64,000 nt of DNA. It comes from an uncultured archaeon. GTDB taxonomy: Archaea > Asgardarchaeota > Lokiarchaeia > Sigyniarchaeales > SOKP01. Made by a program: the position numbers and the translations under genes. Of this stretch, positions 26,750 through 64,000 are shown piece after piece. The DNA lies in assembly GCA_964388035.1 (NCBI GenBank), contig CAYLZE010000006.1, positions 32,001 to 96,000 of the forward strand. The letters run 5' to 3'. The stretch's first letter is position 1; every line of letters starts with the position of its first letter. The notes under the pieces were generated by a model. It saw nothing but the letters and a program-made list of their open reading frames with translations, had not been told where the DNA came from and did no database searches.

Positions 26750-27790
26750 ATGCAATCGAAAAAAAAGTATTATCCTACGGGTAAATTAAGCCACGATGAA
26801 TTAACAAAATTGATTCAAGAATATGTTAAAGATCTTTCTATTAAAGATGAACGTGTGATATTAGGCAGCCAGATTGGTGAAGATGCCGCAGTAATTGATA
26901 TGGGGGATAAATACCTTATCTCAAAAACCGATCCCATTACCTTTGCAACGGATGAAATTGGATATTACGTTGTGAATGTTAATGTGAACGATGTGGTGTG
27001 CATGGGAGCAAAACCAAAATGGTTCCAATCTACCATATTACTTCCAGAAAAAAATACAGATGAATCTTTAATACAGAAAATTTTTAAAGATATACATGAT
27101 ACCTGTTTAAATTATGATATTACGGTTATTGGGGGGCATACGGAAATTACAACAAACCTAAATAGACCCTTGGTAATAGGATGCCTATTAGGAGAGGTAG
27201 AAAAAAAGGATTTAGTAACTACTGCAGGAGCTGAAGTTGGAGATGCTCTGGTGTTAACTAAAGGAATTTTCATAGAAGGGACGTCCATTATTGCAAGAGA
27301 AAAAGAGGATTTATTGAAAAAAAAAGGCTTTCAGCAAGATTTTATCGAGAAATGCAAGAATTTCTTATTTAACCCCGGAATTAGTGTTTATAATGAAGCA
27401 GTTTTAGCCCAGAAGTATTTTAAAATAAAGGCATTTCATGATCCTACCGAAGGGGGAATTGCTTGTGGAATTGCTGAAATGGCAAAAGCATCTCACACGG
27501 GTGTTTTAGTAGATCAAGAAAAGATCAATATTTTACCTGAATCGCAAGAGCTCAGTAAAACCTTCAATTTAAACCCTCTTAATACTATTTCATCTGGATC
27601 TTTATTAATCGCAATTGAAGAAGAGAATCATGACAAACTTATCCGCTTATTGGAAGAAAAAGGCATTTTTGCCAAAAAAATTGGAAATTTCATTCCTGAA
27701 AAAAAGCAATTACTAATAAAAAACCGGGAAGGGAAAATTATTCCAATGATATACTCAGAAATGGATGATATCCTTAAAATTTATAAATAA
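26750..27790 (+). CDS. AIR synthase-related (HypE/ThiL/PurM-like) protein
   Basis: GKL, GEDAAV, TDPITF, NVNDV..MGAKP, GGHTE, HDPTEGG; ATG 26750 preferred over TTG 26690. Confidence 0.88.
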   Translation: MQSKKKYYPTGKLSHDELTKLIQEYVKDLSIKDERVILGSQIGEDAAVIDMGDKYLISKTDPITFATDEIGYYVVNVNVNDVVCMGAKPKWFQSTILLPEKNTDESLIQKIFKDIHDTCLNYDITVIGGHTEITTNLNRPLVIGCLLGEVEKKDLVTTAGAEVGDALVLTKGIFIEGTSIIAREKEDLLKKKGFQQDFIEKCKNFLFNPGISVYNEAVLAQKYFKIKAFHDPTEGGIACGIAEMAKASHTGVLVDQEKINILPESQELSKTFNLNPLNTISSGSLLIAIEEENHDKLIRLLEEKGIFAKKIGNFIPEKKQLLIKNREGKIIPMIYSEMDDILKIYK

Positions 27791-59683: not shown

Positions 59684-60865
59684 TTAACTTTTTATTTCAA
59701 AAAACTTTACTTGCTCTACGATGAATTCACATAATTCTTTTAACAAGTGGGCATCCACATTTTCGAGAGAATCGTATTTAGAGTGCATGTATTGACCTGC
59801 TTCGGGGCTTCCAAACTCGAAGAGATTAAATTTTTTTCTGAATAGATAGATTCCATCAGTATGGACACCACGATTAATCCTGCTGATATATGTAAAAAAA
59901 CCTCTTTTCTTAGCATGAGAGCGAAAAAGTTTGAGATAATCTGGATTATTTTCTAAATTATTTTTTCCTATAAAAATCCCCACGCTTTTTTTTCCTAAAG
60001 ATTCAAAATTATTAACAATTGTTCGACGTGGATCCACTTGCTTTAACTTTTTATAGAAATATCGTATTCCCATCGTGCCCGTTTCTTCAGCCCCCGTAAG
60101 AACGAACCACAAATTCAATTTTTTCAATTTCTCAGTGTTAGGAGGTTGAGAGTAATAGTCCATGAGTTCTAAAACGCATGCCACACCAGAAGCATTATCA
60201 ATAACCCCTTTAGATTGATTATTAATAGTATTAAGAGCAAGGATCGCAAGCGTTATTAAGTTAACAGCAAGTGGAAAAGCACCGATATAATAGAATAACC
60301 GTGCAAGTTGGGGTAAAATGATGTTCTTTAATAAAATGATGATTACGCAAGCAAGCAATGAAATTATAAAGAAGAAAATGCTGATAAATCGCAATCTTAC
60401 CGTAACTCTTTGCCCTTTAGAATCCAAATGAGCAATGAAGAAAATATTTTTGACGTTATTGGTTTTATCACCTTCCATTTCTTTGGATTTTTGTCCACTC
60501 AATTTAATGTATAAATTTTGGGAATCAAGTACTTTTCCGATTCGGATATTTTCGGGATTTCTTGTTAGGATAAAGAACGGAAGAAAAAAGAGGAATGTAA
60601 TGATAAGGCTTAAGGACACGAATATCCCGCTTAAATTCAAGTAGAGTGTAAATATAATCCATAATGCTGTGGGAAAAGCAATTTTAGGATAAATACGAGA
60701 ATAAAAAGTGGAGAATTTAAAAGATTGGGTTTCAAGAGGTAAATTTAATTTTTTAATCTCTTCCTTGGCGAGAGTAAAAGCTCTATCTTCATGAATTGTT
60801 CCCGATAATCTAGGGAAGGCAAATATTTTCAAATATTCTTGGATCCTTTCTTCATTTAAGCCCAT
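59684..60865 (-). CDS. M28-family membrane-associated metallopeptidase
   Basis: FPRLSGT, AHLDS, GVIDNASG, GAEETG, HTDG, HSKYD. Confidence 0.9.
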   Translation of the reverse strand: MGLNEERIQEYLKIFAFPRLSGTIHEDRAFTLAKEEIKKLNLPLETQSFKFSTFYSRIYPKIAFPTALWIIFTLYLNLSGIFVSLSLIITFLFFLPFFILTRNPENIRIGKVLDSQNLYIKLSGQKSKEMEGDKTNNVKNIFFIAHLDSKGQRVTVRLRFISIFFFIISLLACVIIILLKNIILPQLARLFYYIGAFPLAVNLITLAILALNTINNQSKGVIDNASGVACVLELMDYYSQPPNTEKLKKLNLWFVLTGAEETGTMGIRYFYKKLKQVDPRRTIVNNFESLGKKSVGIFIGKNNLENNPDYLKLFRSHAKKRGFFTYISRINRGVHTDGIYLFRKKFNLFEFGSPEAGQYMHSKYDSLENVDAHLLKELCEFIVEQVKFFEIKS

Positions 60866-61163
60866 GATGAGTATTTAAATGAAAATCTTAAATAATATAA
60901 TTATAATAATTAAAAATAAGTAGATAATTAAAAAATCTAATAGATGTAAAAAAACTTTTACAATATTTCACGTTTTCTGGTAAATTAGTTTAAAATATGC
61001 TTTTATATCTGATTTTGGAAATTTTTATACAATTGAATTGAAGGTTAACTAAAAAAGTAACAGATGTGAAGAAATATAAGAATGAAATGATATTCATTTT
61101 AATAGAATGATGAAAGATCGATTTAGTACCATGAAATATAAGAAATCATGGTCGTGATGAAAA

Positions 61164-61451
61164 ATGGAATTAAAGCATAATATACCTACTGAGGAAATAA
61201 GCGTAGCAGCGTACTACGTGTGGCAACGGCAATATAATTATGAAATCCTTTGTTGGTTATTGGCAGAACGTCAATTACATGTGGAAAAAGAATTTACTAA
61301 ATCATCCGTTACCTTGATTAGCCAATTGGCAGAGAATATTTTTTCGTCAAAAACTCCTTATGATATCCTCTGTTGGTATATAGGATTATATAATTTATTC
61401 ATAAAAAGAAAAACATCAATCAAAGATGTAGATTCAATCTTTAAGAGATAA
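61164..61451 (+). CDS. Small protein with two DUF2934-like repeats
   Basis: EEISVAAYYVWQ...YEILCWLLAE and ISQLAENIF...YDILCWYIG. Confidence 0.6.
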   Translation: MELKHNIPTEEISVAAYYVWQRQYNYEILCWLLAERQLHVEKEFTKSSVTLISQLAENIFSSKTPYDILCWYIGLYNLFIKRKTSIKDVDSIFKR

Positions 61452-61586
61452 TTTTTAATCTCTTTTGATATATTGACAAGATTTTTGTTCTCCTATAGGA
61501 GATCTTTTATTTTTAAGAGTTCGCAAGAGATAAGGAGGATTAATTCGTATATTACTCAATAATCCAAGAAAAATAGGTGAAGAGGA

Positions 61587-62255
61587 ATGGAAAAAATTGA
61601 AGAAGAATTGAAAATAGATGAATTTAGAAGATCCTTTCTAATATATACTAGAAAAGCATTTAAGATGCTTCCAAATTTAGAAAACCCCTGCATATTAGAT
61701 ATAGGATGCGGTTCGGGAATTCCAACTTTAGAATTAGCCACATTAAGTAATGGGAAGATCATCGGAATCGATATTGACCAAAATGCTATAAGTGAATTCA
61801 AAAAGAAGATTAAAGATTCAAATTTAAGCAAGAGGATTAAAGCTTTAAATCTCTCCTTGTTTGATGTAAATTTTCCTAAGGAATGTTTTGATATAATATG
61901 GGCAGAAGGTGCTGTAGGTCCTATTGGGTTTGAAAAAGCGTTAAGACATTGCAAGCGTTTATTAAAACCCAATGGATTCATGGTAATCCATGATGATCTG
62001 AAAAAGAAAGAAGAGAAATTAGAAATGATTTTAAAAGATGGATATGAATTACATGACATGTTTGAATTACCTGAGGATACGTGGGGTATTGAATATTATC
62101 AACCATTAGAAATCAAAATGAAAGAGTTTCGTATCAAGCATAAAGAATCACCTCAGATAATGGAGAAATTAAAGAAATACCAAGATGAGATCAATGCATT
62201 TAAGAACGATCCAAGCGATTTCAAATCCATTTTTTATATTATAAAAAGAATCTGA
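61587..62255 (+). CDS. Class I SAM-dependent methyltransferase
   Basis: ILDIGCGSG, IGIDID, FDIIWAEG, LLKPNG. Confidence 0.92.
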   Translation: MEKIEEELKIDEFRRSFLIYTRKAFKMLPNLENPCILDIGCGSGIPTLELATLSNGKIIGIDIDQNAISEFKKKIKDSNLSKRIKALNLSLFDVNFPKECFDIIWAEGAVGPIGFEKALRHCKRLLKPNGFMVIHDDLKKKEEKLEMILKDGYELHDMFELPEDTWGIEYYQPLEIKMKEFRIKHKESPQIMEKLKKYQDEINAFKNDPSDFKSIFYIIKRI

Positions 62256-62367
62256 AGAAAATTTGGATGCAAATTAAAACCAGATTATTATCTCTTTCAA
62301 AATTATTTTTTAAAATGATGGGTGATCAAAAAGTTACCTTTTTTAACATTTATCTAGAAATAAATGA

Positions 62368-62586
62368 ATGAAAGAGATTTCTAAGAAAGTTGAGAATGAA
62401 AAAATATGTGACAATAACATGTGGGATAAAATAAATGAGTGCCTTAGAAATGATGATTATGAATTACTGAAGGCGCATTTTGGCCGAGATGATTTAAGCT
62501 TACAAATTATTGATATGCTGCCCAAGTTAGGTAAAATTAAAGTGTCTATTGAAGATTTTCAATCGGGAACTATTCTTGGAAAATAG
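62368..62586 (+). CDS. Small hypothetical protein
   Basis: 72-aa ORF with protein-like composition. Confidence 0.5.
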   Translation: MKEISKKVENEKICDNNMWDKINECLRNDDYELLKAHFGRDDLSLQIIDMLPKLGKIKVSIEDFQSGTILGK

Positions 62587-62670
62587 AAGATCTCTAAAGG
62601 ATGAAAATGACCATTCTATTTTTACTTACTTCTAAAAAAAAAAAGAGAAAAGGAAAAACGGTGGCAACCG

Positions 62671-62712
62671 GAAATCGCTAATCTTCTAAGATTTTTAAGA
62701 TTAGGTCATATT
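62671..62712 (-). promoter_or_regulatory. Candidate eukaryote-like SECIS element in the 3' UTR
   Basis: RNA AUGAC-CUAAUCUU-AAAAAUCUUAG-AAGAUUAG-CGAU: AUGA/GA core, perfect 8-bp helix, apical adenosines; starts 10 nt after the stop of a UGA-containing gene. Confidence 0.8.
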
Positions 62713-62719
62713 TTTATGG

Positions 62720-63067
62720 TTATTTATATTTCAAGAACAGGTAGTTTCTACTCCATTTAAACATTTTATAAATCTTGGCATCCATGATGAAATCTTCGGG
62801 ATGTTCAAAATCGCCAAATAATGGTCGTTCTAAGTAGACTTGAATCGTTTTTTCACCAACTTTAAGTTCCGTCCATTTATCAACACTATCATACTTTCTC
62901 ACTTCACTTTCGGATAGCATTTGTACCATAATTTGGCAAGATGTTCCTGATCAGGATCGCATGAAATATCGATACACCAAGATGACAATTGGTTCTGCAT
63001 TTTCGTTCTCTAAGGTTTGCTCTAATTGTTCTTGAATTACTTGTTTAGCATCTTCAGTTACTTGCAT
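62720..63067 (-). CDS. Putative selenoprotein with HesB/IscA-like fold (115 aa, Sec at codon 39)
   Basis: ATG 63067 gives MQVTEDAKQVIQEQLEQTLENENAEPIVILVYRYFMRS-UGA-SGTSCQI in frame with the 69-aa ORF 62720-62929; TGA at 62951-62953; downstream SECIS-like hairpin. Confidence 0.8.
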
Positions 63068-63196
63068 TTTTTAAGTGATATTTCTTTTCTTAAAAAAATG
63101 GTATATATCCCTAAAATCTTAAGCTTATATTTTAAAATTATTTAAAAAAAAAGCTTTAAATAATATTTGTTTTGGGAAATATTTAGATCATGATTC

Positions 63197-63979
63197 TTAA
63201 ATTTCTTTTTCTTCTTTTATTTTGGGCTTGTATTTAACCATGATCACGATGATTACCCACAATATATAAAGCATTACGACTCCGCTTATCCAACCGTTTT
63301 CACCGCCCTCTTCCATAGTAAATATAGACAAAAATCCTAACGAAATGACTCCCAAAAGAGCAAAGAATACCATCATAATGACTTTACCTAAAAAACAATA
63401 AATCAGCGTCTTTTTCTTATCGTATTTAAGGAAACCCAATGTCGTTAATAAAATAGATTCTGGCAAGGGCGTAGCTCCGAATAATAAGATTATAAAGGGA
63501 ATTAATTTAGGTTTCTTTAAAATAAGCTGACTCCACGGATTTTGTAATTCATGAGACTCTCGACTGATTAGACTCTGAGTACCTCTGCCAATCACCCAAT
63601 CTAGCATGTCTCCCAAAGTATTAGAAATAGCTGCAGATAGAACTAATAATATAATCAATATCCACGCATCTTCTTTAGATAGTAACCAAGTTGCGGTAAA
63701 AGCGGTGATAGGAATGGCATAGGGCACGGGAATAGGAATGATCGCTCCAATGAAACATACTAATATCGTAAAACCGATTGCTATATATACAGGAATAGCA
63801 TCAAGGGCTTCAGAACCAAACCAGTTGCTCATATCGAATACATTCCCTACGTTTTGATAAAGTGCAGATAATATGGTGACTACGATTATCACTCCCAGAA
63901 AGAGAATCAGGATTATATTGATTTTTTTCTGAGACTTTTTCACCTTTTTCTCTTCCAGTATATTATTATTTTCAGTCAT
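63197..63979 (-). CDS. DedA/VTT (SNARE-associated)-like membrane protein
   Basis: IIPIPVP, GDMLDWVIGR, FGATPLPES...G, GKVI. Confidence 0.75.
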   Translation of the reverse strand: MTENNNILEEKKVKKSQKKINIILILFLGVIIVVTILSALYQNVGNVFDMSNWFGSEALDAIPVYIAIGFTILVCFIGAIIPIPVPYAIPITAFTATWLLSKEDAWILIILLVLSAAISNTLGDMLDWVIGRGTQSLISRESHELQNPWSQLILKKPKLIPFIILLFGATPLPESILLTTLGFLKYDKKKTLIYCFLGKVIMMVFFALLGVISLGFLSIFTMEEGGENGWISGVVMLYILWVIIVIMVKYKPKIKEEKEI

Positions 63980-64000
63980 TATGATAGTTTATTCAACGTG

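What the first reader, a model, noticed from the sequence alone, without database searches (positions are those of the whole stretch)
62671..63067. Hidden selenoprotein candidate: in-frame UGA in a HesB-like fold plus eukaryote-type SECIS in the 3' UTR
Seen: one frame runs from ATG 63067 to TAA 62720, interrupted only by TGA at codon 39 (YRYFMRS-U-SGTSC, a UxxxxC arrangement). Ten nt after the stop is AUGAC CUAAUCUU AAAAAUCUUAG AAGAUUAG CGAU, with the AUGA/GA kink-turn core, a perfect 8-bp helix and unpaired apical As. Established: Lokiarchaeota insert Sec using eukaryote-like 3' UTR SECIS elements, and HesB-like selenoproteins carry Sec at the first conserved Cys (GGC.G). The start MQVTEDAKQVI, the strand before U.G, and IQVYLE...MD fit a divergent HesB/IscA fold without the C-terminal CxC. 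Inference: a divergent, possibly undescribed Asgard selenoprotein that annotation splits in two. The 8-bp helix is shorter than in eukaryotic SECIS.
Basis: partly seen in the sequence, partly recalled or inferred. Interest (0 to 1): 0.9.

Follow-up and report, generated by a model that had tools for sequence, protein, structure and literature searches.

The report
Uncatalogued IscA-fold selenoprotein gene, Lokiarchaeon
A small gene that gene callers cut in two at a UGA "stop" almost certainly encodes a 115-residue selenocysteine protein shaped like iron-sulfur carrier proteins; it belongs to a family confined to one Asgard (Loki-type) lineage that the published selenoprotein lists I read do not include.

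Summary

- **Gene.** Window 63067..62720 (-) is one 115-codon frame with a single TGA at codon 39.
- **Recoding signal.** Ten nt after the TAA lies a hairpin with the published lokiSECIS geometry. A covariance model built only from this genome's VhuD and VhuU SECIS elements hits it. It is the only significant match in the 64-kb window (30.8 bits, E 6e-5).
- **Homologues.** A profile of the family finds 75 matches in 56 of 400 Asgard genomes, 53 of them in one family. About 69 carry one in-frame TGA and 3 full-length copies carry Cys. In the 36-member alignment the Sec/Cys column is the only invariant one.
- **SECIS across the family.** TGA copies carry a covarying SECIS. The three Cys copies do not.
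- **Genome.** It has SelD (itself with UGA), SepSecS, and PSTK-like and EFSec-like genes. TGA is otherwise an ordinary stop.
- **Function.** It is only inferred.

This scan had already flagged a paralogue on another contig (e1-5630734).

The parts
62720..63067 (-). Selenoprotein coding sequence: 115 codons plus TAA, subfamily A of a Lokiarchaeial IscA-fold family
   Evidence: single frame. (homologues conserved across the TGA). (one compact domain, pLDDT 91.5, with a beta-hairpin spanning the TGA).
62951..62953 (-). UGA codon 39, read as selenocysteine
   Evidence: It is the only invariant column of the 36-member alignment: 33 TGA, 3 Cys. About 69 of 75 profile matches in 400 genomes carry one TGA. 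hhalign places it on the GGC Cys of Asgard HesB proteins.
62936..62938 (-). Cys44 codon, the conserved partner five residues after Sec (UxxxxC)
   Evidence: Nearly invariant in A2. It is absent only in the three copies that have Cys instead of Sec.
62675..62709 (-). lokiSECIS element: AUGA, 9-position stem (8 pairs plus a basal C.C), 11-nt loop AAAAAUCUUAG, GA
   Evidence: Sequence. Geometry as in PMC4989117. Model R1, built from known VhuD/VhuU SECIS only, gives 30.8 bits, E 5.9e-5, the sole significant hit in the window. Covariation across 31 distinct family SECIS: 94.5% of cells paired, 8 of 9 pairs with compensatory changes.
62634..62670 (-). Short GC hairpin (CGGU UGCC ACCG) followed by a long T-rich tract: probable transcript end just after the SECIS
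   Evidence: Sequence and fold. A similar hairpin plus T run follows the SECIS in L013. Termination itself is an inference and was not tested.

Best explanation
This is a genuine selenoprotein gene. The mRNA runs from just upstream of ATG 63067 to the T tract after 62670. UGA at codon 39 is decoded as selenocysteine because the 3' UTR carries a lokiSECIS, a kink-turn-type AUGA...GA hairpin that starts 10 nt after the TAA and about 240 nt after the UGA. That element recruits the archaeal Sec elongation system (EFSec with Sec-tRNA made by PSTK, SepSecS and SelD). The product is a 115-residue single-domain protein with the IscA/HesB (A-type carrier) fold. Sec39 sits in the turn of a beta-hairpin, at the position of the first cluster-ligand Cys of IscA, and a conserved Cys lies five residues later. 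Shown here: the frame, the conserved TGA/Cys column, the SECIS, the Sec genes, and the fold prediction. Inferred: actual Sec insertion and the biochemical role. My best guess for the role is that the Sec39/Cys44 pair binds and passes on an Fe-S cluster or metal, probably across a dimer (about 0.4). The alternative is that the pair cycles as a selenenylsulfide redox or chalcogen-transfer centre (about 0.35).
Against: There is no direct evidence of expression or selenium incorporation. tRNA-Sec is not cleanly found in this assembly; there is only a 25-bit Rfam candidate with a 19-nt insertion next to SepSecS. Rfam's own SECIS models do not hit the hairpin, as also reported for Loki genes in PMC4989117. 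The basal stem pair is a C.C mismatch. The hairpin is not thermodynamically unusual. On the functional guess: the C-terminal CxC ligands of A-type carriers are absent. Sequence similarity to HesB is below every curated threshold. In the model Sec39 and Cys44 lie five residues apart around a hairpin turn, and I could not measure their distance.
Confidence: 0.88

Rival explanations
1. Nonsense pseudogene: the TGA is an inactivating mutation in a decaying HesB-like gene, and the downstream hairpin is coincidental.
For: Gene callers stop at the TGA. Neither Pfam nor NCBIfam recognises this protein.
Against: The same codon is TGA in about 69 homologues from 56 genomes at 20-50% protein identity, with conservation continuing after it. 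A covarying SECIS follows the TGA copies and is missing after the Cys copies.
Confidence: 0.02
2. Two independent small genes (38 aa and 69 aa), or a 38-aa peptide with an untranslated tail.
For: Both pieces begin with ATG and are listed as ORFs. Public protein sets contain both kinds of fragment.
Against: The two halves are always adjacent, in frame and separated only by TGA. The joined sequence folds as one domain, with a beta-hairpin straddling the junction, at pLDDT 91.5. Three natural paralogues have Cys there and are read through as one protein. The ATG of the 69-aa piece is not conserved in the homologues.
Confidence: 0.03
3. The UGA is read through, but another residue (Cys or Trp by near-cognate decoding) is inserted instead of Sec. 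Alternatively, the lineage reads TGA as Trp.
For: Many database homologues show W at the site. tRNA-Sec is only weakly detected here.
Against: For P0003, the one case where the DNA could be read, the W is TGA translated as Trp on a short contig ('with_TGA=W'). TGA ends 22% of long ORFs in this genome. The element after the gene is the same as after VhuD and VhuU, which are established selenoproteins. tRNA-Sec scores above Rfam's cut-off in 21 of 31 genomes searched, including the congener.
Confidence: 0.05
4. Functional rival: the protein is not a cluster or metal carrier but a redox or chalcogen-transfer protein. Sec39 would be the nucleophile and Cys44 the resolving residue, forming a selenenylsulfide.
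For: Sec and the +5 Cys go together: the three copies with Cys at the Sec site have lost the +5 Cys. The C-terminal CxC needed for cluster binding in A-type carriers is absent. According to the 2026 review, most prokaryotic selenoproteins are redox proteins with a nearby Cys (PMC13188914). DsrR, an IscA-fold protein of a sulfur-oxidising bacterium, is among the structural matches.
Against: The spacing is UxxxxC, not the usual UxxC or CxxU. The fold is not thioredoxin-like. No partner oxidoreductase is conserved next to the gene; the recurrent neighbours are a P-type ATPase, an aconitase and two membrane proteins.
Confidence: 0.35

Closest known systems
lokiSECIS elements of Lokiarchaeial VhuD, VhuU, HdrA and PrxL genes (Mariotti et al. 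2016, PMC4989117; 'type I eSECIS-like' of Huang et al. 2024, PMC11227280)
   Same: AUGA before a 9-position stem. An 11-nt apical loop beginning with five A and ending AG. GA after the stem. Position a few nt after the stop codon. It scores 30.8 bits on a model made from this genome's VhuD/VhuU elements.
   Different: The basal stem position is a C.C mismatch. That position is also unpaired in 10 of 31 family elements. The gene it serves is not one of the families listed in those papers.
HesB-like selenoprotein (NCBIfam TIGR01911, motif UxGP; 75Se-labelled in Methanococcus maripaludis, function unclear; PMC13188914, PMC11097638)
   Same: A small protein related to IscA/HesB, with a single Sec near residue 40 after the second beta-strand. 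It is the only NCBIfam selenoprotein model of this fold class that gives even weak hits to the family.
   Different: It scores far below the curated cut-off: no hit for this protein, and 18.7 against 66.35 bits for its paralogue. The motif is U-S-G-T...C (or U-T-M-x-F-C in subfamily B), not UxGP. It uses a lokiSECIS rather than a methanogen-type SECIS. It is confined to one Asgard family.
A-type Fe-S carriers IscA/SufA (Pfam PF01521; PDB 1s98, 1r94, 2d2a, 1x0g)
   Different: The C-terminal CxC ligands are missing. A Cys replaces the conserved Tyr five residues after the first Cys. Sequence similarity is below Pfam's threshold. Canonical PF01521 proteins were not found above the cut-off in any genome of this archaeal family that was searched.

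Membership tests
lokiSECIS (Mariotti 2016) | AUGA immediately 5' of the stem and GA (or AA) immediately 3' of it | tested here: met
   AUGA at 62709..62706 and GA at 62676..62675.
lokiSECIS (Mariotti 2016) | 9-bp stem and 11-nt apical loop | tested here: met
   The stem has 9 positions, 8 of them paired, with a basal C.C. The loop has 11 nt. The basal pair is often unpaired across the family.
lokiSECIS (Mariotti 2016) | First five loop nucleotides A-rich; last loop nucleotide G, usually preceded by A | tested here: met
   The loop is AAAAAUCUUAG. The criteria come from PMC4989117.
lokiSECIS (Mariotti 2016) | Lies close downstream of a selenoprotein coding sequence and resembles the elements of known selenoprotein genes of the same organism | tested here: met
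   It starts 10 nt after the TAA. Model R1 from VhuD/VhuU gives 30.8 bits, E 5.9e-5, the only significant hit in the window.
Selenoprotein gene (bioinformatic criteria) | In-frame TGA aligned with TGA or Cys in homologues, with conservation on both sides | tested here: met
Selenoprotein gene (bioinformatic criteria) | Organism has the Sec machinery (SelD, PSTK, SepSecS, EFSec, tRNA-Sec) | tested here: inconclusive
   SelD-U and SepSecS score over their cut-offs. The PSTK-like and EFSec-like genes score strongly but under the equivalog cut-offs. tRNA-Sec is only a 25-bit candidate with an insertion. It is clear in the congener, at 53.9 bits.
Selenoprotein gene (bioinformatic criteria) | Selenium demonstrated in the protein | not testable with these tools
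   This needs 75Se labelling or mass spectrometry.
HesB-like selenoprotein, TIGR01911 | Score at or above the curated cut-off of 66.35 bits | tested here: not met
   No hit for this protein. The best among 36 members has E 0.0012. In a whole-genome search, only the paralogue on C124 hits, at 18.7 bits.
HesB-like selenoprotein, TIGR01911 | UxGP motif | tested here: not met
   Here the motif is U-S-G-T, and subfamily B has U-T-M-x. The UxGP motif is taken from PMC13188914, Table 1.
A-type carrier / Fe-S_biosyn, PF01521 | Pfam gathering score of 26.3 bits | tested here: not met
   No hit for this protein. Five of 36 members hit weakly, best E 9.1e-5. In a six-frame search the family reaches at most 18.6 bits.
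A-type carrier / Fe-S_biosyn, PF01521 | IscA fold | tested here: met
A-type carrier / Fe-S_biosyn, PF01521 | Three conserved Cys ligands (one after strand 2, plus a C-terminal CxC) | tested here: not met
   Only the first position is kept, as Sec. No C-terminal CxC occurs in any of the 36 members, unlike the Asgard HesB proteins ending in CGCG.

The most novel reading that the evidence does not exclude
Lokiarchaeales have replaced the canonical A-type Fe-S carrier, which was not found above the cut-off in their genomes, with a lineage-specific IscA-fold family. That family is almost always a selenoprotein and has diversified into three paralogous subfamilies (two with Sec, one with Cys), often in tandem beside a P-type ATPase. 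A Sec/Cys pair on the hairpin ligates the cluster or metal. This would be a first selenium-ligated carrier of this kind and a new entry in the Asgard selenoproteome.
Probability: 0.25. Interest if true: 0.8.

Novelty: new variant of a known kind. Interest (0 to 1): 0.6.

Why it matters
Published selenoproteomes of Asgard archaea list five to seven families, all found by homology to known selenoproteins (PMC4989117, PMC11227280, PMC13188914). This gene belongs to a further family, with 75 profile matches in 56 of the 400 Asgard genomes sampled, about 69 of them carrying the in-frame TGA. Ordinary annotation splits these genes or mistranslates them with Trp. Three consequences follow:
- The selenoproteome of the archaea closest to eukaryotes is larger than catalogued.
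- SECIS-first scans recover new families there. The same pattern scan also flagged two more candidates in this genome.
- The family is a natural test case for why Sec is kept at the first ligand position of an IscA-type fold, including a built-in Sec versus Cys paralogue comparison.

Tried and rejected
- **Rfam.** A scan of 60000-64000 at E up to 10 gave no SECIS family, only chance-level sRNA and snoRNA hits. Mariotti et al. report the same failure of the tools they tried on Loki genes.
- **Protein family and sequence searches.** Pfam and NCBIfam gave nothing relevant for this single protein. A profile search against PDB sequences gave only a chance hit at E about 1.
- **tRNA-Sec.** ARAGORN at a relaxed threshold proposed a tRNA-Sec on C15. 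I rejected it: 24% GC, poor stems, and no Rfam support.
- **Profile comparison.** hhalign of the family against Asgard HesB proteins is weak (probability 19%, E 0.0013). I use it only for residue correspondence.
- **The search for related loci.** It failed with the whole-family alignment and with the C-terminal half. It worked only with the subfamily B alignment.
- **Genome context.** Context did not settle function. The recurrent neighbours are a divergent P-type cation ATPase, a convergent aconitase and two uncharacterised membrane proteins. In this window the neighbours are different: a VTT/DedA-like membrane protein and a methyltransferase.

Full report
**1. The observation**

On the minus strand, ATG 63067..63065 opens a frame that runs to TAA 62722..62720. 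It is interrupted only by TGA at 62953..62951, which is codon 39. Standard ORF listing gives two pieces, of 38 aa and 69 aa.

Ten nt after the TAA the RNA reads AUGA / CCUAAUCUU / AAAAAUCUUAG / AAGAUUAGC / GA (62709..62675). RNAfold predicts the 8-bp helix. The folding energy of the region is not unusual (z -0.84), so stability alone proves nothing. Directly after the element come a short GC hairpin and a long T tract (62670..62634). This looks like the transcript end, and a similar arrangement follows the element in a homologue.

**2. Is the organism a selenocysteine user?**

The window is C6:32001-96000 of a 5.47-Mb, 211-contig assembly at 33% GC, 96.7% complete.

- It encodes a SelD that itself carries an in-frame TGA (184 bits, over the cut-off).
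- It encodes SepSecS (471 bits).
- Its best PSTK-like gene scores 153 bits and its best EFSec/SelB-like gene 237 bits against a cut-off of 242.
- tRNA-Sec was not found by the whole-genome Rfam search. The congener's clear tRNA-Sec (53.9 bits) matches C6:4098-4156 at 81% identity, about 290 nt upstream of SepSecS. Rfam scores that site at only 25 bits, with a UCA anticodon loop and a 19-nt insertion. I count this as a candidate only.
- TGA ends 494 of 2226 ORFs of at least 300 codons, and the median read-through after it is 9.5 codons. TGA is therefore a normal stop here.

Record titles of family members name Promethearchaeota/Promethearchaeia MAGs, that is, Loki-type Asgard archaea.

**3. Is the hairpin a SECIS?**

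Mariotti et al. (PMC4989117) define the lokiSECIS as follows: AUGA, a 9-bp stem, an 11-nt loop whose first five nt are A-rich and whose last is G (usually AG), then GA or AA. The element lies close to the stop codon. The element here fits each point, except that the basal stem position is C.C.

A scan of the whole genome for this geometry gave 72 hairpins with any loop. Only 10 had the Loki-type loop, where about 0.5 would be expected from base composition. Of those 10:
- 4 follow VhuD genes, which have two U each.
- 2 follow VhuU genes.
- 1 is this one.
- 3 follow other ORFs with in-frame TGA.

I then built a covariance model from the six VhuD/VhuU elements only. Over the 64-kb window, both strands, it gives one significant hit: 62670-62714(-), 30.8 bits, E 5.9e-5. 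The runner-up scores 16 bits.

**4. Homologues**

- A six-frame search with the read-through protein over 400 genomes of the phylum found matches in 29 genomes. All 29 belong to one family-level group, and nearly all matches carry exactly one TGA.
- In the alignment of 36 members (A2) the Sec position is the only invariant column: 33 TGA and 3 Cys. Cys at +5 and an Asp at residue 96 are nearly invariant, and similarity extends along the whole length.
- A profile of A2 over the same 400 genomes finds 75 matches in 56 genomes, 53 of 134 in that one family. About 69 have one TGA and 3 full-length ones have none.
- Three subfamilies appear. A includes this gene (...RS-U-SG..C). B has ...ST-U-TM.FCGN and a C-terminal ...KK..VYG; this genome's paralogue on C124 belongs to it. 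C is a Cys form (...QA-C-AGSY) without the +5 Cys. In some relatives B, C and A lie in tandem.
- In the 1.84-billion-protein library the family appears in three forms: N-terminal fragments of 38-40 aa, C-terminal fragments of 65-87 aa starting right after the Sec site, and full-length entries with W at the site. For P0003, where the DNA could be read, the W is TGA translated as Trp.

**5. SECIS across the family**

Model R1 or the pattern scan finds an element within about 45 nt of the stop in nearly all TGA-bearing members that have downstream sequence (36 of 37 by my tally of those outputs). The remaining one (L013, subfamily A) has the same hairpin with ACGA instead of AUGA. None of the three Cys copies has one.

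On the model-guided alignment of 31 distinct elements, 94.5% of cells pair, against 77% in shuffles and about 50% when the partners are slid. Eight of nine pairs show compensatory changes. The alignment was fitted to the model, which favours pairing, but the stem sequences differ widely.

**6. The protein**

AlphaFold2 with A2 gives a confident single domain: pLDDT 91.5, pTM 0.82. It has an N-terminal helix followed by beta-hairpins, and Sec39 with Ser40 form the turn between strands 27-38 and 41-52.

- Foldseek's six best PDB hits are IscA, SufA and an IscA-family NMR structure, at weak E-values.
- At sequence level the link is faint. PF01521 hits 5 of 36 members (best E 9e-5). TIGR01911, NF038090, SufA and TIGR00049 each hit one to three members, all below their cut-offs. 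In this genome TIGR01911 hits only the C124 paralogue, at 18.7 bits against a cut-off of 66.35.
- hhalign against 15 bona fide Asgard HesB proteins is weak (E 0.0013). It nevertheless puts Sec39 on their GGC Cys.

The C-terminal CxC of A-type carriers is absent. Canonical PF01521 proteins were not found above the cut-off in any genome of this archaeal family that was searched: 0 of 12 and 0 of 25.

**7. What it does**

The recoding mechanism follows from established knowledge of archaeal and eukaryotic Sec insertion together with the features shown above. The biochemical function is inference.

- For a carrier role: the fold, Sec at the first ligand position, and the missing canonical carrier in this lineage.
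- Against it: the lost CxC.
- For a redox or chalcogen-transfer role: the coupled presence of Sec and the +5 Cys.

Context is not decisive. In relatives the recurrent neighbours are a divergent P-type cation ATPase (22 loci), a convergent aconitase (8 loci) and two membrane proteins downstream (12 loci). Here the neighbours are an upstream VTT/DedA-like membrane protein and a convergent methyltransferase.

**8. Novelty**

The Asgard selenoprotein families in the papers I could read are SelD, FrhA/VhuU, HdrA, FrhD/VhuD, PrxL, AhpF-N-like and DsbA-like. None of these papers mentions a HesB-type protein in Asgard archaea.

The HesB-like selenoprotein of methanogens and bacteria is known, and its function is unclear. 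This family fails that family's model and motif. I therefore rate it a new variant of a known kind.

Earlier notes of this scan reached the same reading for the paralogue on another contig (e1-5630734) and had flagged this stretch in another window (e1-5629987). I reached my reading from my own searches before consulting them.

Noticed in passing
Own genome outside the window: G000:C9:106082-106116 (+) and G000:C81:2544-2578 (+); loci L046 and L047: Two ORFs of about 150-175 aa contain UGUU and UU (two or three adjacent in-frame TGA codons) in a conserved context. Each is followed within 15 nt by a lokiSECIS (R1 scores 32.2 and 30.7 bits). This is a candidate multi-Sec selenoprotein family not in the lists I read.
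   Followed up: partly
Own genome outside the window: G000:C9:15453-15487 (-); locus L048: A lokiSECIS (R1 37.3 bits) follows a tiny CxxC...CxxC ORF that ends at a TGA. An earlier scan note treats it as a 37-aa zinc-ribbon selenoprotein.
   Followed up: partly
Own genome outside the window: G000:C6:4085-4188 (L007:1110-1213), about 290 nt upstream of SepSecS: A candidate tRNA-Sec with a UCA anticodon loop and a 19-nt insertion in the T arm. Rfam scores it at only 25 bits. It is 81% identical over 59 nt to the congener's clear tRNA-Sec. ARAGORN without introns finds only 7 tRNAs in the whole assembly, so many tRNAs here may carry introns.
   Followed up: partly
Library proteins P0002-P0009, P0011, P0016, P0022: Full-length database versions of the family carry W at the Sec position. 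For P0003 the DNA shows TGA read as Trp on a short contig. This is an annotation artefact that could be mistaken for a Trp homologue.
   Followed up: partly
L013:1860-1895 (+): The SECIS after one subfamily A homologue has ACGA instead of AUGA in the core, with the rest of the hairpin intact. It may be a tolerated variant, a dead element or a sequencing error.
   Followed up: no
Subfamily B genes, for example L028, L030, L032, L011 and L014: The frame upstream of subfamily B genes reads a conserved ...(R/I)W(F/U)LFK... I read this as a Shine-Dalgarno-like GGTG(A) followed by a TTG start, not as coding sequence. Many B genes therefore lack an ATG start.
   Followed up: no
Relatives' loci L011, L012, L014, L017, L025-L031, L035 and L036: Two conserved genes of unknown family follow the selenoprotein genes on the same strand. 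One is a protein of about 190 aa with one N-terminal membrane helix and many N-x-S/T sequons. The other is a polytopic membrane protein of about 170 aa. A P-type cation ATPase lies divergently upstream in 22 loci.
   Followed up: partly
window 59653-59692 (+): The second-best hit of the SECIS model in the window (16 bits, E 0.26). It has AUGA but a short loop, and is probably chance.
   Followed up: no
window 26780-27568 (+) (G000:C6:58780-59568): A SelD/AIR-synthase-related gene without TGA. It scores 91 bits on the selD model, below the cut-off, so it is a paralogue of unclear role.
   Followed up: no
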